DNA from: Nageia nagi
Lineage: Eukaryota > Plantae > Pinophyta
Assembly: GCA_050084985.1 (NCBI GenBank)
Contig: JBITNC010000002.1
Coordinates: 8,742,001-8,806,000 of the forward strand
Direction: 5' to 3'
Length of the DNA stretch: 64,000 nt
Below are positions 12,225-28,920 of the stretch, piece after piece. Each line of letters opens with the position of its first letter. The first letter of the stretch is position 1. The translations under genes and the position numbers were made by a program. A model generated the notes under the pieces. The model did not search any database and had not been told where the DNA came from. It saw only the letters and a list, made by a program, of their open reading frames with translations.

Positions 12225-12321
<97 letters not shown>

Positions 12322-12653
12322 TATCGCTAAATAGGTCTTTCTGTTCAATAAGTCATGTCACTTCAATCCCATTATGATGATCTCTAATGATTTGCTTATG
12401 GAATGTTACATTGCTAAGTTTCCTTTCATCCAATCATTAGTTGTTATATATATATATATATCATTATCTCTCTTTTACTCTCTTGCTCTTACACACGCAT
12501 ACATATTTCTCTCATCCTTGATGCATTTGTTTGTCGCTAAATAGGTCTTTTATGTTCAATAAGTCATGTCACTTCAATCCCATTATGATGATCTCTAACG
12601 ATTTGCTTATGGAATGTTACATTGCTAACTTTCCTTTCATCCAATCGTTAGTC
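12072..12653. repeat. Three near-identical ~130-150 bp direct repeats separated by (TA)n tracts
   Basis: Unit GCTAAATAGGTCTTT..TTCAATAAGTCATGTCACTTCAATCC..ATTATGATGATCTCTAA..GATTTGCTTATGGAATGTTACATTGCTAA occurs in copies at ~12072-12225, ~12319-12445 and ~12503-12653. Confidence 0.9.
12226..12318. repeat. (TA)n microsatellite, ~46 units
   Basis: Perfect TA run read directly. Confidence 0.98.
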
Positions 12654-13383
12654 TTTAGAGTCGTTAATCCTTTAGTTTTGAATTCTCCTTCTAACAATAG
12701 CAAATGAGGTTCAAATTTTGGGAGTGAGTTGTCTAAGTCCTGTGAAAATAAAATCTAAGATGCAATCAACACGGTAAATGTAAACAATAAGTTTGTAGAT
12801 ATTTATATATTCAAATTTAATTATGTATAGAGCATAACTCATTCAAATTCAAGATCAATTTATTGTGAATTTGCATCATATTTATTATGATTAACATTTA
12901 ATTAATTGTTTTTAAATAAGTTAAATCAATTTTTAGTATGAAAAATACTCTTGTAATACCAATAATTACTTTTTATATACCTTAATTTGGTTGAAAGTAT
13001 TCTTTTATGTCTACCCTTCTAAAAACTAAAAAATTAAGTTGCTTATGTTTGATTTATGATATCAAATTTTACCTAAATACTTCAACTTGGAGATCTTTAA
13101 CTTTCTTTTTGAATGTTGTAAATTGAATTTTATTCATGATTTCAATTAAGAATTTAATGAAATACTAATTTTTTTTATAAAATAATTAAAAATACCATGT
13201 TAATTATTCTTATATGTAAAATTGTTAAATTTATTTGAATCAATTTCATTAATTTTTCTTCTATTTTAAGATATCTTACTCTTATTTCAATCTATGACAA
13301 CACATTTGAGAAAAGGTATTCCATTTCGTAGAGAAATGCATTTAGAAAATAAATTGCAAGGACGTTCATATTCAAATTCCTCT

Positions 13384-13759
13384 GGCCCATAATGGTGAGC
13401 TTGAAAATCTTATTTGAATGCAGGTTAAAAAGATAAAAAGCAAAGAGGGTGTCTTCACGGCTGTAATTGGGAGGTTCTGCGAGAGGGATAGAACCGTGAT
13501 AGGTAGTTGGGCATTCCGTGAATGTCAGTGGAGGAGATGGGAATGGGATTCCCTAGCGCTTTCACCCGGCGCTAACCCTCACTCTGTACCCAAGCGTGGG
13601 GTCACGCTCTGAAGGAAACGTCCTCATCCACATTTGGGCCCCAAGTAATAAATCTAGACCTATATCATCCGCAATAAATAACATAGACAGGAAAAATGGA
13701 TTAAGCACTTTGATTTTTGAGCTAGATTATTTGTTTTGAATCAATTTCTAAGGTCCCAC
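13384..13759 (+). promoter_or_regulatory. Candidate promoter region of the MIR396 locus with TCP-type/site II motifs
   Basis: GGCCCA 13384-13389, TGGGCC 13635-13640 and GGTCCCAC (GGNCCCAC) 13752-13759, at the start of the CpG-retaining island. Telo-box TAGGGTTT at 14247-14254. Short motifs, so support is modest. Confidence 0.4.
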
Positions 13760-14427
13760 TGCGCACTAGTAGCATCTCCATATTTTGATGCCTTCACGAG
13801 GTGGTCGGCGATGCAGACGGCTTCCCACCTCGATCCAATTTACCCTTCCTCCCATTGGGTCTCTTCCATATTTTTGATGGGGAATAGTTAGAACTTTACA
13901 TGAAATCTAGAAGTCTGGAGACTTTGATTGGTTTTGGGAAATTGCTGCCAGATGTGGATTACAAAGTCTTAAGAAGAAAATACAATTTTTTTAATTACTG
14001 TTGATTGATTATGGAGGAGGTCTTGCTTTATGTTGCATACAAGCACTGACGATGGCGTGGGAATGCGTACAAAGAAGGACGTGCAGGTGACAGGCTGCAC
14101 GCATCGCCACCGTCAGAGTTTTCTGCACGCTAAAAGCACAAAAAAAAATTGACAGCCATATGGAGATGGTCATCGACTCATCACTCATGAAGAGAGCTTC
14201 AAAAAAAAAAAAATTTGATGTAAGATATCAGGAAGTGGAGTGATCCTAGGGTTTGGTAAAGGATTTGTGGGTTTGGTGATGTGCTTTCATTAAAGAATAA
14301 CTAAGTTTAGAGAACGTCAGGACTCTGATGGCCTTGTCTGTTGTTATAGTATTAACTATTTTGTTGCTACTGATGCATTGGTAGTACTATAGTTGTGATT
14401 GATATTATTATTGAGTTGGCTATCGTC

Positions 14428-14516
14428 AGAGGGGAGGTGGAGTGGGTGGTCGGAGTCGAGATCTGGGCTGGCGCTGGGGCCTTGACTCCACCGACACATT
14501 CCTTCAATTTTTTCTT
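14428..14516 (+). ncRNA. Candidate pre-miRNA hairpin, miR482/2118-like arms
   Basis: 5' arm GGAGTGGGTGGTCGGAGTCGAG (14439-14460) pairs at about 18-20 of 22 positions (including G:U) with 3' arm CTTGACTCCACCGACACATTCC (14481-14502). GU-rich lower stem. Not an exact match to any miRNA I recall. Confidence 0.5.
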
Positions 14517-14765
14517 CCTTCTTTTCCGATCTTCTATGGCCATGTTCTTCTTGTCCTGTTAGGGCTGTACTATACTGGTCTTGCATTTATTTTGCCACCA
14601 CGCGCCTGTGGTGGGGCTGGAGATGTAGCCTAGCTAGTCTTGATAAAAGTCTTCTGTTTCGTTTTGCTTGATATAGGAGACGGGATGGGGGATGGATATG
14701 GCGTTGAGAGATTTCTCACTTCTTGAGAAGAATTTTTCTGAGATGATGAAGGCATGGCTTGGAAA

Positions 14766-14886
14766 GAATCCATTCATGTTTTTCCACAGCTTTCTTGAAC
14801 TTAGTGCTCAGGTTTTGGGTTCCTTACAAAGGTCTCTTATGCGGGTACAAAGCTCAAGAAAGCTGTGGGAAAACAAGAAGGGATTC
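14766..14886 (+). ncRNA. MIR396: MIR396 precursor hairpin
   Basis: Exact mature miR396-5p TTCCACAGCTTTCTTGAACTT at 14782-14802. Star GCTCAAGAAAGCTGTGGGAAA at 14852-14872 with 2-nt offset. Lower stem closes with GAATCC/GGATTC. Confidence 0.98.
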
Positions 14887-16705
14887 GGTAAGACGAGGTA
14901 ATCGTGCCGTTTTATTGTCGAGATACAAAAGGTGAATTTCATGCCTGTACTGTAGAAAGCTGTGTTTTCTACGATTGGAATTCTAACTATGAAGTTGCAG
15001 CAACTATTCTTTTTGTTTTGTTTTTTTTTTTTTTTTTTTTTTAATTTTGTTGTGTGTATCGGTATTATGAGTTTATCTTTTTGCTTGAAGATCAAATTTT
15101 GTTGAAATCTATAAGGACGTTGTAGATTAGATTGCATGTTGGCTAGGGTTTCAACTTTCTGGTCACGGGAAAACTTTTTGCACCTAAAAAATTGTCCGTG
15201 CTTTCAAGCAAATTTTTAAAATAGATCCTGGTTTCCATCTTGAGATTTCAGATGTCAAATACTTTGTTTTTCCGGGTTTCTAATCCATTCGTATTAAACT
15301 TTTTCGCTAATATATTTCGTTCACAATGTTTAGTATCTCCATTTAACTCCCACACAGATCGGCTGACAATTCACTATATTCTGATTTGCATTACGTCGTC
15401 TCGATCTTTTTTGAGATCGGTAGCAGGCTTTAATGTATTGTGCAGGGTTTTAGCTGATCGCTGCATGCGTTTCTCTTCTCGTTCGACATCTATAGTTCCC
15501 AGATTTTACTATTTATAATGTTTAAATGGTTGACATGTATTTTTGGCTAAGGTTCAGGCCCTCGAATTGGATCTCGTTGATGGTGGTTACTCAAAATCTG
15601 TAGGAGCTTATTGATGCTTTTGATGTGGCATCGTTTGGTGGATCAAGTATTCAGACCTAATCCTGATCATGAAGAGATACCTTTTCATCAAAGCTATGCC
15701 GAACTTCAATAGGAGGTTGCTTTCAATTTATTGTGATGTTTATTCTAATCAACTTGAATCCGATGGGGAAAAGTAATTATTATCTATCACATAGCTTTTA
15801 ATTCACTCGACAGTTGATTATTCGTAAAATCAATACATTTCACCTGTAATAACATTTGAATTCAAAGGAACTGTTAAAATAAAAATTAGTACCATTTACG
15901 TACATTTTTCTTAATTTCTGTGGGAGGATGGTTGTACGTTTCTGCTTTCATACATTTCCCTTATCTAGTGCAATCACTGCTGGTGTGCTCAGTGGATTCA
16001 GCAACGGATTCTCGGCTACTTTAGAGGCCATGGATTTTAACTGCATGTAGAGAGGACACAGTGACATCACTGTAGTACTCAAATACTGTGTTTCTGAACT
16101 GCAGTGGATATTTACACTTGAAATAAATTTTACATTGAAATATATGTTAACATTAAAGTTGAAGATAATGTATCCTGGGAATAATTGGGAAATTTGGTAT
16201 TTTTATTCTTCATGATAACTTAATTATCAGAATGCTTGTTTTTATTTATGATGTTGCCTGAAGGTACTGAAATGGTTCATTTTAAATACGTTAATATATT
16301 TCCTACTGTTACTTGCTGACAGACGTTGCAGACGGAAGGCTCTTATGTGACTTCTGTCATAAAGTATGGTACAAAACGTTTTATACCTTGGTAGAATTAA
16401 CAGAAAACACATGGGTTTCTTCACAATGTAATGAACTCTGACTGGAAGCTGAAAGCTAGTCTCTGACCCTTGTATTCAGTATTGCTTTACAGCTGCAACC
16501 TAGGTTGTTTTATTCTCTGTCATGCCAGTTATACTTCTGGCTCCAGAGAAGAACAATGATTGAGGTTTGAGTTCTCTTGGCTTTCTGTTAGCTGAAGCGC
16601 TCTCCTTTATTTTTCGGACTTTCCTCTAGATTATATGTTTTTCATAACAGTATTGTCTTTATTTTTCCTATCCATATAATATTTCCTTTTCTTTTCTTCT
16701 ACCAG

Positions 16706-16849
16706 AACTTCAACGCCTAACCTCTATTTTCGCATACATGATGCTTTTGGCTGCCTGCATAGACAGAAAGACATTGAAAACGACCAAATCAAGCTGAAGA
16801 AAAGGTCGACTGTATCATCGCAAAACAGAGAAAGATTCAGGAAGCAGAG
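16706..16849 (+). other. Predicted 144-nt internal exon of the pri-miR396 transcript
   Basis: Strong pyrimidine tract TTTCCTTTTCTTTTCTTCTACCAG| acceptor and GAG|GTAACC donor. Purine-richer interior than the flanking T-rich sequence. Confidence 0.5.
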
Positions 16850-19800
16850 GTAACCCTATATATTTATTAATGTCAAGTTGATTTATATGTTATAAATTGG
16901 AAGCGTTTTCCTCACTTGCTTCTGCTATTAATAGGTCAACTCCTGATTCTTATTGTAATTGTCAAGTTCTTTTCCCAGATTTCACATTAAGGCTATTTGA
17001 AGGGGTAACCTTTGAAATTCACCATTTAGATTCCAGAAGTGGTTTTATATTGCGATTTGTTGTTTGCTATTGATAAGATAATTCAATCTATACTAGTAGC
17101 TAAATTCGAACCAGAAAAGAGCCAGTACTTCAGTAGTAGATAGTTGCTATTCTTGGAAATCAACTACCATCTCTGACTACAGTTCTATACATTGCTGATA
17201 TTTCTGTAAAGATCAATCTACAACCCTTGTGGCGTTGTTCCAAACGCACGCTTGCTTGGCTGAGAAAAGGAATTTTTAGGCGGTGGGGGCTTATCAATTA
17301 TGTACCATTAAATATCGGTACGCACAGTAGACGTCATGTGTAAGTCCTGCCATTTTCACATCGTATTCGATAGGGTTTCCTATTCGTAGGTTTCTAGTTT
17401 CAAGTCACTGGAGAAATGTCACTGATTTGAATCATTTCATTTTTTTCGTTTTGAGACTATACACTTGAAATCCAATAATTTCTCTACTTTTCTGATACTT
17501 TTGTATTCCATTTATTCACAACCTTATAGTAACTTTATAGTAACTTATAGTTTGTAGTCTTGTTTATTTATTGACATCAGTACCAGACTTGTAATGTATT
17601 GAGCTCAGGTTTAGCTCATTGACGGACGCTTAACCAGGCAGCATATCTATCTATCCACCTTAGCATATCTACTCGAACTTGAAATTCTTAATCAAAAGAA
17701 TCTTCACACAAATTAGGGGCTGATGAAATGAGGACTGGAGGGAGACCACCATTTAGTATTCTATTCAGATGTCTGAAGATCTACTTTCTTGCTGGTCGGG
17801 AAAGTCTGGATACAAGCTTTTGCAATTTGGAAGAACATTGATAATCTTTTTGAAGTTAAAAACCTTGTTAATAACACCAGGCAGTTGCGTCCATACACCT
17901 TTAAACATCAGCGTTGCCAACTAGTTATATGGACAACACCTTTAGTTTTCCTTTTTCTGCAATACAGATTGAATGTCTTTCACACTAATCTCTATTATCT
18001 CTACCCTTATAAATTTGATGATAAACATACATGTGATAATATTGTTTTATTTAATTAAAAAAATAATTTCGTTACGTAATACGTTACACAATAATTCAAG
18101 CTTTGAGCTTTTGATCCTATCAACTTCTACATGGTCTCTCGTTAAGAAGTTCAGAGTTTTTCATCTGTGACAACAATATTTAAGGTTGATTTGTCTGTAA
18201 CCATTGATCTCTGTACAAGATGGTGTTGAAAGCAAGACATTTTAATCTTTAATTTTAAAAGGTGATTAGAGCTCTACCTTACAGCAAACTGATTGGAAGA
18301 TTTGAAGGTGATGATTTGACATTCACAATATTGCTTACAATATGGGGTATTGCAGAGGGTTTTTATGCTTAATGAAAGTACTTCTCTTGGAATAGCAACT
18401 AGCTGCTACATCACTTTTAACTTTCGAAGCAAAATATATGATAAATTATCATGTTGTTAAATAAATAATTTGATTAAAAAAATGAATGGAAGATTTGAAC
18501 TTAAACAATATTTGTTTATAGATTTATTTGTTTATAGATTTATTTTATAATTAATAAAGTTACATTATCATCTTTAAAAATATTAAATTTATAAAAATAA
18601 AAAAATTTATATATTAATATGCATTGATGATCAGCCAAAAGAAGGTAAAACATACACAAGACAATGGAAGTGCCTAAAGAAGCTTCAGACATTAAAAAAA
18701 GCTAAGCACATTACTAATTAATTTTAGATGAGATCAGATAAAGTGTTCTTCTTTGACAAATATGATTGTCAAAGATATATTCAACAAATTACTACCTCAA
18801 AACAAACTGAAATACCATATGTTACAACTCTATATAAAGTTTAGAAAAGAAAGCTGTATTTAAAGAGAATTATTATAATATTCATTCTACAAAATCTTCA
18901 GTCAAACAACATTTAAACCAAAAAAAAAATTCTAAAACTAAATAATATACTTTTAAAAAATATTACTATATTTATTTACATTAAATTACGAAAACAATAT
19001 TTAGAAACCAGTTTCAATTGTGTTTTAGGAAAATGGATATATATATGCACTTACAAAATAACGTAAAACTGGATTCTTTCTTCTGGTAAATTACCACAAA
19101 TTGAAGCTGTGAAGCTCAACTCTCACAACCCAATGATGGGCTCTATCACTTCATCAACTCTGAAAGGACGAGGGAACAGAAGGCCATGCATTTACTATCA
19201 CTTTACGGGGGCAACTAAAGTTGGTTTATTCTCTGTTATTTGAACATTAGTTCTGTTACAACAAGATTGATGTTTGTTTTTAGAGTATTGTCCCCTTCCT
19301 CCTCCTCCTGCTACCTAGTCGATTATCTCTTTTTTCCCACTCCTCTCTATTATTATTTGTGTTCTGCCTGCTTACAAGAACTCAATGCCCAAGCCCGTTG
19401 CTTCTTCGATTTACTATGTTCATTATCAGAAGTCCATTTTCTTGTAAACCCACACTCCTTCCAAATCTGTGTAACTATGTGTTTTCGTTTTGGCTCCCAC
19501 AATCCGATCACATGTTTGCTCAATGCTGTTTCAGTTTTGCTTTGTTACGGGAGAACTTCACGTTATTTTCGAATACATATATCATGCAGTCGAGGTCCTA
19601 AAGGTCCCTATGGAGACGCCCAACCTGGCAGCCCAGACGGAAATGCACGGATCTGTTACGCAGCTGAGATCCCATAAGTCCAAAATGGCTTCTTTTCATT
19701 TATCTTCAAATACACTATACATACCACATTCAGTAAATAGGTCTTTATTAGACAAAAAAAATAGCTCCTCGGAGCTGTTCATCCAGGTACCGCACAGGTA

Positions 19801-22800
19801 CTACCAGCATTCTTTCATAATGCCGGGTCTAGTAATAGTTAGCAGCAGCTCAGATCTAAGCGGCTTCTCTCTCCGGAGGACTATCAGTTTCTGGCGTCAC
19901 CTGCGTCTACTTAAGCCTGTCATGCACAGACTTTTCCTAACGGCGCTCTCCGGACTCCCAGGCCATACTCACTAAATGCTGATTGGTACTCTCCTGACTT
20001 GCACACCTGATCCAGTTTTTCATGTTCGTCGCCGATTTCCCTCATTTTCTCAGGGCTCGATGCGGATCCGAAATCTTAGGGAACATACTACGGCTACCGA
20101 ACTACGAGGACCACGTTCCTTCATCAGGACCTGAGCACTTGACCAGGATCATATCTAATGGAAATATTTTGAAGCCTGATTACAAGAACATTCCTGTTTT
20201 AGAATGATTTGGGAGGGTACTGTGATCTTTTTTACAGCGGGTTCGTCCTCACTCCTCGTAGTATTAGTTTAGGATCTGGTATTGTTTTTTTCTTTTAAAT
20301 AGTATTTTGTATAATAAAATATTTAATTATTTATGAGGATTGCTGCTCTCTGAATATTTGGTTTTCACCACTAAGTTCTTATATATCACAGTATATTTGC
20401 TGAAATCACATCATTCCATATATATAATTCTTGGTCTTCAATTTGAAGATTGATGTTAGAGAAGCTAAAAAAATTACAGAAATAATATGATTAAACATGG
20501 ACATAAGTTCTACATGAAAGTTTTCCTGCCTGCAAAAATGTTCTGAAGGGTACAGTCAGTCTTAAACGTTCTCAAACTGTAAAGTTGTATAATTCAGTCA
20601 GAAGTAACTTGCATGATGGTACTATCAATTAATACTTTTAAACTGTAGAGCCGCCTGGCTTGGTATTTATCATCTATTTTTATATCGGAACACAATATTC
20701 AAAATATAATTACCGACTTTAAAACTCAGATTTGATGGCGTAAATATCAAAATGTCGCTTCTAGACATGGGGAATACTCTTACGTTTTTAAGTTTCTTAG
20801 CATCACGAGTATTTAAATTTTCTTTTGAAGCTTGTTGATGTAAAATAAATTACAGAGCAAACATGGGCTTATTCTCTGTATCAACTATGATCATAAGCTA
20901 AAAGAATACGCCCGGCAATAAAGGATGTTCTATTCTTTGTCATTGTTTCCCAAAAGCAGCATCTTAGTTTGGAACCTGTGATCTGCAAAATCATTATTTT
21001 TTTTATAATATCATGTTTTTGGAAAAGATAATGCATCATTTTTTTTAATAAATAACTGGATATTTGTTTTCAAAACAACATATCCTTCTTTTAATGTTTT
21101 CTAAAGATGGTTGTTGTTGCAACAATAAAATGTCAATAACTTTTCTAACAGTAAAGCAGAGAGATTTGTCCCTTCACACCCATATATTGTTCTGTGTTCA
21201 TATTGCAAGTGCAGGTCAGCTTCACTTTCACACAACAATCCAACTGGGTTCACGGTTTGTGACCGGCAACCGGCATTAGCTATATTGTACATTATGATGA
21301 ACAATCCAAGATTTCACCAAATATAGTTTACTGAGCACCACAGGTAAGATCAATGAGGAATTTTTTTTTTGTAAGCGGTGGCAATCTAGATGGATAATTG
21401 ATTGACAATACTGTGACTCAAAGTTTCTGTCACTTATGCTTGGTTTCCGGTTTCACATTTTCAAGTTGATAGGTGCTCAAATAAGATAAATGTAAAATAT
21501 AATAATTCTTATTTCAAAAGAAAGGAAATTGTATATAATGAAATAATGTAATTGTTATTGCTATATATCAATAATTTAGAAGAACTTCAAAATTATATGT
21601 TTAAGATCAAAATAATATAACTTTTAATATATGATAATGTTGATGATAATTATAAAATAGTTTTTTAATTCTATTATATTATAATATTTTTAAATTATAT
21701 AAAGTACATAAGATGATAGATACAAACTATAGTAGTAATTGTTAGAATCTATACTATGTGTAATTAATTGATAATCAATATTTTTAACCTATGTTTATGA
21801 AGAGACAATGAAACAATTTCAAATCCCTTAGGTCTTGTAGAACCATAGGGTATGTCGTGACAACATCATTGATTACATTAAAATATTTATTCTAACACGA
21901 GGTTATAATGGTACTAGTAGTCATATTTGAACCCACGATGAGGTAGAGAATATGGTAACTAGTTATCAATTTCTCTAGTCTAACGTAAAACAATAATTTG
22001 GCATTCCTTCACTTATGTTGAGGTGAATATTAATCATTATTGTTCGTAGTGGATAAATGTTTGATCATCGAGCCTTTGGTTGGTAACCAATGACATGAAT
22101 ATTGATGATGATTATAATATAAATTTGGAATCAATATTAGGATAAGGATCATTTATGTTGATAAGGTAGATCATGATGATTGATAATAAATAAAAAATGA
22201 TGATATTAACATTATAATGATATGCATTTTTTTTTTTGAGATTATTCGTCCCTCTTTCAAAACCTATAATCTTCATGTTATTTAAGATATCAATTGCATG
22301 GGTTGGGATTTTTATCAAGATCTAGGATTTTACTCATTGTATGTAGCGAAAACTTTTAGTTGATGAACTAGTTAAAAATAGCTATAATTTTGGATTCTCA
22401 ATTTTTAACTTGGCTAGTACAATGCACCTTTTTTCCCACCTTAACATGAAAATTTTATATGAATTTGTAAATTTTTAGGCTTTAATACCAAAGGTTATAC
22501 AATTTTTTTAACCTTTTTTTAATTATAACACCTTCATTTCTAATCATGTTGGGTTAGTTTTTACCTTGGAATTATTAAAATTATCCTACCAAATTAATAA
22601 CACAAAAATCCATACAAAATATTTTGATGTTTTTATTTCTATTCTAATGTACTCAATTACATAAGTTTCCATGAAAGACAAAGTACAATATGGTAATAAT
22701 TTAGCCAACTAAATACAATTATAATGAGATATCTTAGGACTTTCGAAGTACCATGAAGAAAGTAGGTTTGATGATCACTCAAAACTTGCAAATCTTGCAT

Positions 22801-26300: not shown

Positions 26301-28920
26301 CACAATACTTTAGCTAATCAGTTAGCTTCTAAGGTAGCTAATTATGGTGTGACTACCCATTCCAAATCCAAAATAGAGATCAAATTGGTCTTTAGGCTAT
26401 CTGTACCGGATAATGACTATCAAGAGTAAATATTTGATAGTAATCCCTAGATTAATCAATTTATACAATATTTTGTGTACTCCTTTGATGAGGAAACCAC
26501 TCGAGATGACCTTTAGGATAAGGATATCATTCAACTAAAGAATAAATTCATTCCAAAAACCCTTATTTCTTTAGAAAAAGTCATTAACAAAGAGGATAGA
26601 TTCAAAACTTCTTCGCAACAAGATTAGAAGAGAAATTACCATGAAATCGAGGTCCTTTCAAATAAAAGAGTGAAGGTTAGAATAGATGTTGTTCCTCATG
26701 AAATTCGAGATATGATCCTTCTCTCTAGAGAGTTTTAAGATATCATAATATGAAATTATTAGAACCTAAAGACATAATATGGATGTAGTCTAGCACTCAA
26801 TCAAGCTTAAAGAGGAAACTGTCCCTTTTAGAAAAAAAACAAAGAGCAATAAATCCCATAATTGAGGTTATGATGAAATAAGAGTTGATCAAACTATTAG
26901 ATGCAGGGATAATCTTTGCAATTAAAAATACTACTTTGGTCTTGAATTTGTTAAAATATATAATGCATAATGTGTTATGTATCTACAAAAATAAATATTA
27001 CCTCCTTTATATTATCCACTTAAATACATTACTTTAGAAAGTATTTAAGTGAAAGAAAAATTAAGGAAGACTTGTCCCCACACACCACCTACTTGTAAGG
27101 TCATGCTTATCCATAAGGATAAAGATAAAATCATGTATACTGGGTCTTGGTGTGTACCTTGGATAATAGGATGATCCAACAAAGAGATTTTACCTATAAA
27201 TAGTGGTTCTACCCTCATGGTTCTATAACAAGTTTTGGAGCAAAGTTATGCTCTTAGTTGTGTAAGGAAGTAGGAGTTGAGTTATAAGAGAGAGTGCTTT
27301 TTAAACAATAGAGATCTTGGATTAGTGGATGTACTCCCAAGGAGGGAGGAACCACTTTATATTAGTGTCTCTTATGTTAATTTGTAAGATTACTTGCATT
27401 GAGTTTGAGTTTATATTACGTTAGAGTTGAGTGTTTTCAAGGGATCTTGGGATTTAATAAATTACCGTATTACTTCAATTTTCATTAGAATCTAGTACAA
27501 GTTTGAAACAAGAGTGGAGAGATTCACTTATGAGTAGATTTTGGAAATCTTAACCAAGCATATTTAAAAGATCATTATCCAATCCCACTCATGGACCATA
27601 TTTTACATACAATTGCTAGAGTAGAATGTTTTTCATTTATTGATGGATTCTCAAGTTTCAATCATATATGGATGAAGGACAATGATCAACATAAGATTGT
27701 GTTTATAACTAAGTGGGGTATTTGTACCTTGAAAAGAATGCTCTTTTGTCTCTTAAATACTGATGTAACCTTTCAAATAGCTATAGATCATGATTTTGGT
27801 CCATTGATCTACAAAATCATTTTAGTAGACCTTGATGATATTACTATCTTTTTAAAACACAGAAGAGATCACTTGGGTCACCTCATAGATATGTTTGAAA
27901 AATGTAGAGTTTTTATCATTTCTCTAAATACCAAAAAATTAATTTTTATTTTCAAGGAAAGTAAGTTGTTAGGGAATGTAGTTTTCAAACAAGAAATGAC
28001 CATTGAACTAAAAAGAGTGATAGCCATAAGAAATATCCATTTTCCATCCCACAAGATAGCTCTTCAATCTTTTCTAAGTCACTTTAATTTTTTAAGAAAA
28101 TTTATTCATGAATTTGGTCATATCATCAGACCCATTTTATATATTCTCAAAAATGATGTGCCATTTCTGTGAATACCAAAAGCAAGGAGAATCATTTAAC
28201 AACATTAAGGAAGCTATTCTTAGTTCTCCTATTTTAAAGAAATCTTATTTTAATAGGGCTTTCATTTTATATATAGTGGGATAGGATAAAAGCAAAGTTA
28301 TAGTCATTACTCAAAAGGATGAAGACAAACAAGAACACCCAATTTTGTTTTATAGTAAGACTCTCTATGATGCAAAAACTAGATATACCTTTATTGAGAA
28401 ACATGTCTTTGCAGTCATGAGAGCCCTCAAAAAGTTTAGATATTTTCTCTCACATAGTCAAATATTTATTTATACCCTTCATTTGGATATCAAGAACTTC
28501 ATAATGCAAAGGAATATTAAGGTGAGAAAGCTAGTTAGATCAATAAAATATTAGAGTTTGTTGTAGATATTAGACCTACAAAGTAAATTTGAGGTAGAGC
28601 ATTATATTGGTTCTACTCGAAATCAAGATACTACCTCTACTTTAGACAATGATAGTGTTTCCACTTCAAATATTATATAGGTAAACATTCATCAAAATGA
28701 TGAAAAGAATGAGGTTATGTTTGAATTTAAAATGACACGAATCAATGAGTTTCTAAGGTATTTCAAGATTGGGATATGTCTTTTAATTTAACTCCTCAAA
28801 GAAGAAGATTTAGGCTTTAGGAAATCAACTATACAATCATTGATACTAAATTATATAGGAGGAATTATGATAGAGTGTTACTAATATGTATCAATGATAG
28901 AATTCATTTGCTCATCCTTA
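23386..28920 (+). mobile_element. Degenerate Tat-lineage Gypsy with order gag-PR-aRH-RT-RH, truncated in INT
   Basis: Decayed tRNA-Arg-type PBS TGATATGCCTACTGGTAC (23386-23403); Gag ~23750-24500; protease LVDTG near 25425; additional RNase H WVMHFNG...TNNAIEYEALYLGL at ~25965-26340; RT ORF 27591-28172 (FIDGFSSFNHI, VDLDD); RH ORF 28345-28554. Confidence 0.92.
26949..27487 (+). mobile_element. Solo LTR (539 bp) inserted in the RT of the Tat element
   Basis: Starts TGTTAA and ends TTCATTA. Flanked by GAATT (26944-26948) and GAATC (27488-27492). Removing it rejoins the RT motif (..NLVQV*NKSGEI..). Related to the LTR at 2867. Confidence 0.88.

What the first reader, a model, noticed from the sequence alone, without database searches (positions are those of the whole stretch)
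14428..14886. Unannotated miR482/2118-like hairpin 250 nt upstream of MIR396: possible heterologous polycistron
Seen: a 22-nt duplex (14439-14460 with 14481-14502) on the same strand as MIR396. The 3' arm ends CATTCC and the 5' arm starts GGAGTGGGTGG. Established: miR482/2118 are 22-nt 3p miRNAs typically ending ..CCCAUUCC that hit the NB-LRR P-loop (GMGG.GKT) and trigger phasiRNAs, while miR396 controls GRF growth factors. The arm's complement (GGAATGTGTCGGTGGAGTCAAG) departs from the P-loop consensus, so targets may have shifted. Inference: one transcript could co-produce a growth miRNA and a divergent phasiRNA-trigger miRNA. This is the best candidate for an undescribed system in the window.
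Basis: partly seen in the sequence, partly recalled or inferred. Interest (0 to 1): 0.8.

Follow-up and report, generated by a model that had tools for sequence, protein, structure and literature searches.

The report
MIR396 transcript carrying an extra hairpin
A conifer-type gene for the growth microRNA miR396 has a second, weaker hairpin on the same spliced RNA; its ends resemble the defence microRNA miR482, but it does not match that family's targets and is likely a passenger, though whether it yields a small RNA is untested.

Summary
The hairpin is real (arms 14439-14460 and 14481-14502; z about -3) and lies 270 nt 5' of a true MIR396 (14772-14881). Assembled contigs from 4 studies run through both hairpins. 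In a related species that contig splices GT-AG from 14932 to 16322, so both hairpins sit in the first exon of one non-coding transcript. The miR482/2118 label fails on the arm that matters. The 3' arm keeps the family's 3' end but shares only 3-5 of 12 seed bases and scores 0.9 bits on a profile of this genome's MIR482 loci (members 21-25). It pairs with none of 29 P-loop sites (penalty 9.5-17.5; control miR482 4-10). No target excess was found genome-wide. The hairpin is weaker than true MIR482s (MFEI 0.75-0.81 against 0.93-1.13), lacks their symmetric lower stem and has no paralog. Its arms are unchanged in one fully resolved relative, but 5-10% of random placements are too. No small-RNA data were available. 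Verdict: an ordinary MIR396 gene with a probable passenger, possibly a decayed MIR482 (0.6); a genuine second miRNA (0.3) stays open and is cheap to test.

The parts
13793..14931 (+). First exon (5' end not fixed) of a spliced non-coding pri-miR396 that holds hairpin A, hairpin B and MIR396
   Evidence: Single contigs X1 13894-15001 and X2 13793-15001; X4 13958-14932 and X6 14191-15000 in relatives; X4 loose end matches 16324-16353 at 27 of 30 letters (compared by eye); donor GT at 14932. Longest + strand ATG ORF in 13700-14940 is 69 aa.
14428..14522 (+). Hairpin B, the finding: short stem-loop with MIR482-like ends, a purine/pyrimidine lower stem set off by an asymmetric loop
   Evidence: Folds; arm-to-arm pairing probability 0.91 within the whole exon; MFEI 0.75-0.81
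14439..14460 (+). 5' arm of hairpin B (predicted star, 14441-14461 if diced); begins like MIR482 star arms
   Evidence: 11-14 of 22 identical to the 5' arms of this genome's MIR482 loci; profile 13.9 bits, members 10.6-22.8 (partly circular)
14481..14502 (+). 3' arm of hairpin B (predicted mature strand if diced; 5'-U forms could start at 14482 or 14483)
   Evidence: 10-12 of 22 identical to MIR482 3' arms, members 14-22 among themselves; seed 3-5 of 12, profile 0.9 bits
14772..14881 (+). MIR396 precursor; mature miR396 14782-14802, star about 14852-14872
   Evidence: Rfam RF00648 E 1.9e-16; fold z -6.7 to -8.6; one of 10 pattern matches in the genome
14046..14119 (+). Hairpin A, another leader stem-loop; probably not a miRNA
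   Evidence: MFEI 0.64 on +, multi-base bulge; change at 14111 breaks a stem pair in runs X4, X6, X9
16323..16849 (+). Downstream exon of the same transcript (acceptor AG 16321-16322; donors at 14932 in a relative and 15716 in run X3)
   Evidence: Joints 15713>16321 and 16847>21213, both GT..AG read with cut +2; splice letters checked
21215..21374 (+). Likely terminal exon with an A-rich loose end (probable poly(A) site)
   Evidence: One contig of run X1 (tables 5, 7, 8); genome letters

Best explanation
The locus is a MIR396 gene whose spliced non-coding transcript carries a second, weaker stem-loop 270 nt upstream of the miR396 hairpin in the same exon, and that stem-loop is likely a passenger, possibly a decayed MIR482/2118 copy, that yields little or no working small RNA. 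Shown: both hairpins, their strand, contigs that bridge them, GT-AG splicing on the + strand, and the failure of the 3' arm to pair with P-loop sites. From established knowledge: DCL1 cuts miR396 out of the downstream hairpin and miR396 represses GRF mRNAs. Inferred: hairpin B folds stably in the primary transcript but is a poor DCL1 substrate (lower stability, no symmetric lower stem, two registers) and has no target to be selected for. Inferred, about even odds: it descends from a MIR482/2118 hairpin whose mature arm was scrambled by small indels while the outer ends survived; otherwise it is a chance fold of a G-rich tract followed by a pyrimidine-rich tract.
For: One exon: contigs of X1, X2, X4, X6, 4 studies, bridge both hairpins; the X4 contig then continues into 16324+; 3 GT..AG joints. 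Weak precursor: MFEI 0.75 against 0.93-1.13 for the 6 MIR482 loci of this genome folded the same way; the 5 distinct true loci show a near-symmetric lower stem, B a 1-versus-10-nt loop in the MEA structure. Not miR482 in function: best penalty 9.5-17.5 at 29 P-loop-type sites against 4-10 for the genome's own miR482 (30 of 36 matches fetched, L062 dropped as the MIR482 locus itself). The arm that should be under selection is the one that has drifted (0.9 bits against 21-25). No target excess: 201 matches against 201 control with G:U allowed. The four sites with penalty 3 or less among those scored (L020, L031, L131, L132) lie in no recognisable intact gene. No paralog; none of the 9 other MIR396 pattern loci has a B-like sequence, and one has an unrelated leader hairpin nearly as stable (-24.0 against -27.3) that is not kept in its paralogs.
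Against: B is the most stable duplex among the 10 MIR396 leaders and pairs at 0.91 in the whole exon, close to MIR396 at 0.94. It meets the usual duplex limits (recalled: at most 5 mismatched positions, at most 3 in asymmetric bulges). In run X4, the one relative with a complete difference list, both arms are unchanged while changes fall at 14438, 14474, 14505 and 14506, the pattern of a conserved miRNA; MIR396 arms behave the same. By hand, those changes would shrink the basal bulge and weaken the rival register. The MIR482-like end-motif pair occurs once on both strands of the 64-kb window, at B; column-permutation p 0.002 (partly circular). A 22-nt 5'-U form exists in the miR2118 register (14483-14504). 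Non-coding or UTR targets cannot be seen in genomic scans.
Confidence: 0.6

Rival explanations
1. Hairpin B is a genuine second miRNA gene within pri-miR396 (a non-homologous polycistron). DCL1 would release a 21-22-nt RNA from the 3' arm, a MIR482/2118 derivative or lineage-specific miRNA that no longer targets NB-LRR P-loops and acts on non-coding, UTR or retroelement transcripts.
For: Same exon as MIR396; stable duplex; ends in the register of true MIR482 duplexes, whose stars start with the same six bases; arms unchanged in X4; gymnosperm MIR482/2118 often lie in clusters on one transcript (PMC3347991) and also target non-coding PHAS loci (PMC4651229). At least 53 of 80 three-mismatch matches to the 3' arm are one retroelement coding motif in the orientation that would be targeted.
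Against: Low MFEI and poor lower stem; invariance in X4 is reached by 89 of 910 sliding templates, or 30 of 594 outside B and MIR396; X6 has an extra base after 14440 at the 5' end of the star arm, and the X5 and X6 difference lists are incomplete; no target excess; the retroelement match has a mismatch at seed position 8 and lies in broken frames; no like sequence in the spruce, Araucaria, Ginkgo or Cryptomeria lists searched.
Confidence: 0.3
2. Hairpin B is a kept structural element of the pri-miR396 leader that tunes miR396 output (folding, stability or DCL1/HYL1 loading) without giving a small RNA of its own.
For: It folds independently and stably in exon 1 and is retained in organisms B, C and D.
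Against: None of the 9 other MIR396 pattern loci has it; no compensatory change was seen; the whole exon is 92-96% alike among these relatives, so retention is expected.
Confidence: 0.1

Closest known systems
MIR396 (Rfam RF00648)
   Same: Downstream hairpin matches the model end to end; the mature sequence equals spruce miR396g/h (PMC4651229 table S2) and Araucaria miR396 (PMC6448024).
   Different: Long first exon with extra stem-loops. In spruce, no other table entry shares a contig with the six MIR396 loci checked (a, d, e, g, h, u; 6 of 21 listed).
miR482/miR2118 superfamily (this genome: L079, L123, L124, L125, L126, L128)
   Same: Short 3'-arm hairpin; 5' arm starts and 3' arm ends with family-like letters; 6-7 of the last 9 bases of the 3' arm agree.
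   Different: Seed 3-5 of 12; no P-loop pairing; weaker fold; one bulge on each strand, so no built-in 22/21 asymmetry; no clean lower stem.
Non-homologous polycistronic plant pri-miRNAs (Ath-MIR859-774, Ptc-MIR482-1448; Merchan et al. 2009, PMC2812943) and pine MIR482-1448-2118 clusters (PMC3347991)
   Same: Two unrelated hairpins less than 1 kb apart on one strand and one transcript.
   Different: In the known cases both miRNAs are sequenced and usually hit related targets; here the second product and any target are unproven. MIR396 does not occur in the main text of PMC2812943.

Membership tests
MIR396 | Hairpin with miR396 on the 5' arm matching the family model | tested here: met
   RF00648 full length, E 1.9e-16, 77.8 bits (gathering score 80 missed by 2.2); mature identical to published gymnosperm miR396
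miR482/2118 | Mature 3' arm similar to family members, seed included | tested here: not met
   10-12 of 22 identical (members 14-22), seed 3-5 of 12, profile 0.9 bits against 21-25
miR482/2118 | Complementarity to the NB-LRR P-loop coding sequence | tested here: not met
   Penalty 9.5-17.5 at 29 sites against 4-10 for the control miR482; best site anywhere in those ORFs 8.5
miR482/2118 | 22 nt with a 5' U (all 19 spruce sequences, PMC4651229) | tested here: inconclusive
   The 22-mer ending at 14502 starts with C; 5'-U 22-mers are possible from 14482 or 14483; the duplex has no net asymmetry. Length needs reads.
miR482/2118 | Star arm and hairpin ends like family precursors | tested here: inconclusive
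   5' arm 13.9 bits, within the members' range; permutation p 0.002; but the reference loci were found with a pattern that fixes those letters, and the comparison is post hoc
miR482/2118 | Triggers phased siRNAs from its targets | not testable with these tools
   No small-RNA or degradome run was offered
Plant miRNA (annotation criteria, recalled from Axtell and Meyers 2018; paper not held) | Foldback under 300 nt; duplex with at most 5 mismatched positions, at most 3 in asymmetric bulges | tested here: met
   64-95 nt; 1 mismatch and 2 single-base bulges
Plant miRNA (annotation criteria, recalled) | Precise miRNA and miRNA* reads with 2-nt overhangs, replicated | not testable with these tools
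   Only assembled contigs were available
Non-homologous polycistronic pri-miRNA | Both hairpins on one transcript | tested here: met
   Bridging contigs in 4 runs of 4 studies, one spliced; contigs are assemblies, so a single molecule is not shown
Non-homologous polycistronic pri-miRNA | Both hairpins give mature miRNAs | not testable with these tools
   No small-RNA reads

The most novel reading that the evidence does not exclude
A MIR482/2118-derived hairpin has been captured into the first exon of a conifer MIR396 gene and re-aimed by indels away from NB-LRR P-loops, so that one promoter makes the GRF-repressing miR396 together with a new 21-22-nt miRNA acting on non-coding or retroelement transcripts (the commonest near-match is an integrase-like coding motif present in at least 53 copies).
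Probability: 0.2. Interest if true: 0.6.

Novelty: new member of a known kind. Interest (0 to 1): 0.3.

Why it matters
On the best reading it is one more MIR396 gene with a long structured leader, of use for annotation only. If hairpin B is diced, it would be a pairing of a deeply conserved growth miRNA with an unrelated, probably defence-derived miRNA on one transcript. Searches did not turn up such a pairing (judged from listings and the passages named). It would also be a natural case of a miRNA changing targets by indel. The co-transcription evidence makes the question answerable with one small-RNA library.

Tried and rejected
Rfam at gathering level found nothing in the window. No RNA holder listed: all 16 runs are guessed RNA; I rely on splice joints, not the label. 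None of the 4 organism-A runs covers 12400-13603, and X3, X5 and X9 have gaps around 14311-14460; run X3 has a contig starting at 14461, the edge of the 5' arm. Contigs cannot show starts, so none of this was used. Exact search of metagenome contigs: 1 hit, a bacterial transposase-like ORF, chance. L020, the only 2-mismatch site for the 3' arm, lies upstream of a TATA-like box and a small ORF; no Pfam match. Of the 79 non-self matches, 43 were translated in context and the other 36 were judged by sequence as the same repeat motif; of the 201 matches, 100 were listed and 31 examined. 5' arm search: 28 matches against 26 control, mostly one repeat family sharing 16 purine-rich bases only (20 loci examined), so a repeat origin was rejected. 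One receptor-like kinase (L115) has a 5'-arm site of penalty 4.5-5, but its 29 closest paralogs score 7.5 or worse, in or at the edge of the shuffled range (30 of 150 fetched): a single weak lead. The idea that the 5' arm is itself a miR482 target or mimic was rejected: best penalty 10 for 10 family forms over 13701-21400. Hairpin A as a third miRNA was rejected. The sigma-70 scan is irrelevant for a plant; no TATA-like word was found in 13301-14790. Full-text search for arm 14-mers: 0 papers. The Cryptomeria supplements held only 6,813 characters, so that blank is weak; miRBase and PmiREN could not be searched. Earlier scan notes: nothing. The relatives' hairpins were not folded as sequences; the effect of their changes was reasoned by hand.

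Full report
Observation. The window holds a MIR396 precursor at 14772-14881 on the + strand (Rfam E 1.9e-16; fold z -8.6). About 270 nt upstream on the same strand lies the reported stem-loop (hairpin B). Its arms, 14439-14460 and 14481-14502, form 20 pairs with one mismatch and one single-base bulge on each strand. It folds better than shuffles when cut tightly (3-13 of 500 shuffles as good for four boundary choices) and not when flanks are included (17 of 200). It ranks 4th of 337 stem candidates in the window. In the whole exon its arms pair with probability 0.91, MIR396 with 0.94, but two registers compete at the base.

Organism. The genome is 4.3 Gb. It has the miR396 variant typical of spruce and a MIR482 whose mature sequence is identical to an Araucaria miRNA (L079; Aang-nmiR046). 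I infer a conifer.

One transcript. All runs offered were contigs with RNA status guessed. In organism A, X1 (13894-15001) and X2 (13793-15001) each give one contig across both hairpins; X3 and X8 do not (2 of 4 runs). Three GT..AG joints on the + strand and an A-rich loose end at 21370 indicate spliced, probably polyadenylated RNA. In relatives, X4 (13958-14932) and X6 (14191-15000) bridge both hairpins (2 of 4 runs; X5 covers B on a separate contig; X9 does not cover B). The X4 contig goes on into sequence matching 16324-16353 (27 of 30 letters, by eye), which is a splice from the GT at 14932 to the AG at 16322. Transcription therefore starts at least 600 nt upstream of B. A second internal start is not excluded, and contigs do not prove a single molecule. 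No + strand ORF of 120 aa or more lies in 13700-19200.

Is B a miR482/2118? I found the genome's own family loci by pattern (9 loci, of which L079, L123, L124, L125, L126, L128 fold as MIR482 hairpins; L127, L129, L130 were dropped as poor folds or low-complexity matches). B's 5' arm resembles their star arms (11-14 of 22; 13.9 bits), but that test is partly circular. B's 3' arm, the would-be mature strand, keeps 6-7 of the last 9 bases yet only 3-5 of 12 seed bases, and scores 0.9 bits against 21-25 for members left out in turn. Against 29 P-loop-type sites from the genome it scores 9.5-17.5 penalty points in three registers, the control miR482 4-10. By eye, its complement reads like the P-loop codons with a 4-base insertion and a 3-base loss, which would fit decay by indels. 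True loci have MFEI 0.93-1.13 and a near-symmetric lower stem; B has 0.75 and an asymmetric basal loop. Spruce members are all 22 nt with 5' U (PMC4651229, passages); most 22-nt miRNAs come from asymmetric duplexes (bioRxiv 10.1101/310920, abstract start only). B has no net asymmetry, though a 5'-U 22-mer could start at 14482 or 14483.

Shifted targets? A three-mismatch search with the 3' arm gave 80 matches against 14 for the control, but at least 53 are two spellings of one repeat motif that translates like a retroelement integrase (label recalled, not tested). With G:U allowed there is no excess (201 against 201). The four sites at penalty 3 or less among those scored are in no recognisable intact gene. 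The 5' arm gave 28 against 26, with one kinase site at 4.5-5 that its paralogs do not share. Non-coding and UTR targets remain possible; spruce miR482/2118 has such targets.

Conservation. B is present in organisms B, C and D. Only for X4 are the differences accounted for (38 of 39 substitutions listed and all 27 gap letters). There both arms are unchanged and changes fall at 14438, 14474, 14505 and 14506. This looks like a miRNA, but the exon is about 95% alike overall, and 89 of 910 sliding templates (30 of 594 outside B and MIR396) are equally clean. X6 has an extra base after 14440. B has no paralog and is absent from the other 9 MIR396 pattern loci, one of which has its own unconserved leader hairpin of similar strength.

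Literature. Non-homologous polycistrons are known, including MIR482-1448 (PMC2812943, passages) and pine MIR482-2118 clusters (PMC3347991, passages). Searches listed no paper that, from its listing, reports a MIR396 plus MIR482 transcript; I read passages of only the papers named. No B-like sequence was found in full text, the spruce tables (supplement 4 searched; one search listed its miR482/2118 rows), Araucaria (abstract, passages, section 16 whole, supplements searched), Ginkgo (passages and supplement searched) or Cryptomeria (supplements searched only, little text held). These were exact short-word searches and would miss variants; supplements I could not see, miRBase and PmiREN may hold a match.

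Verdict. Co-transcription is well supported; a working miR482/2118 is not; processing is untested. I put 0.6 on a passenger or decayed hairpin in an ordinary pri-miR396, 0.3 on a genuine second miRNA, and 0.1 on a structural regulator. Interest 0.3; 0.6 if small-RNA reads show a re-aimed MIR482 derivative.

Noticed in passing
window 14046-14119: Second leader stem-loop (hairpin A) in the same exon, GC-rich with a multi-base bulge; a change at 14111 in three relatives breaks a stem pair.
   Followed up: yes
window 14932-21374: The pri-miR396 is alternatively spliced: donors at 14932 (relative), 15716, 16850 and 17340; acceptors at 16322, 17608 and 21214; the first donor lies about 50 nt 3' of the MIR396 hairpin.
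   Followed up: partly
window 14352-14437: An 86-nt AT-rich stretch just 5' of hairpin B has no change in run X4, the longest clean stretch of the exon (one change in X6 at 14356); it forms a small hairpin. Unexplained.
   Followed up: no
L124:1500-1570 (G000:C4:143692449-143692518): A MIR482 hairpin so symmetric that both strands match the family pattern and fold (MFEI 1.13 and 1.0); could give sense and antisense miRNAs.
   Followed up: no
L010, L011, L012 (G000:C2:32.35-33.02 Mb) and L014-L016 (C2:332.48-332.66 Mb): MIR396 loci are grouped on contig C2; L014 and L015 are tandem copies 3.3 kb apart. L016 folds poorly and L018 does not fold, so they may be decayed copies.
   Followed up: partly
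L020:835-1227 (-): 130-aa ORF with a TATA-like box upstream and no Pfam match; looks like a small plant protein gene.
   Followed up: partly
window 27534-28172 (+): Reverse transcriptase fragment (PF00078, E 1.1e-9), retroelement remnant.
   Followed up: partly
window 12226-12318: (TA)46 microsatellite upstream of the transcript.
   Followed up: no
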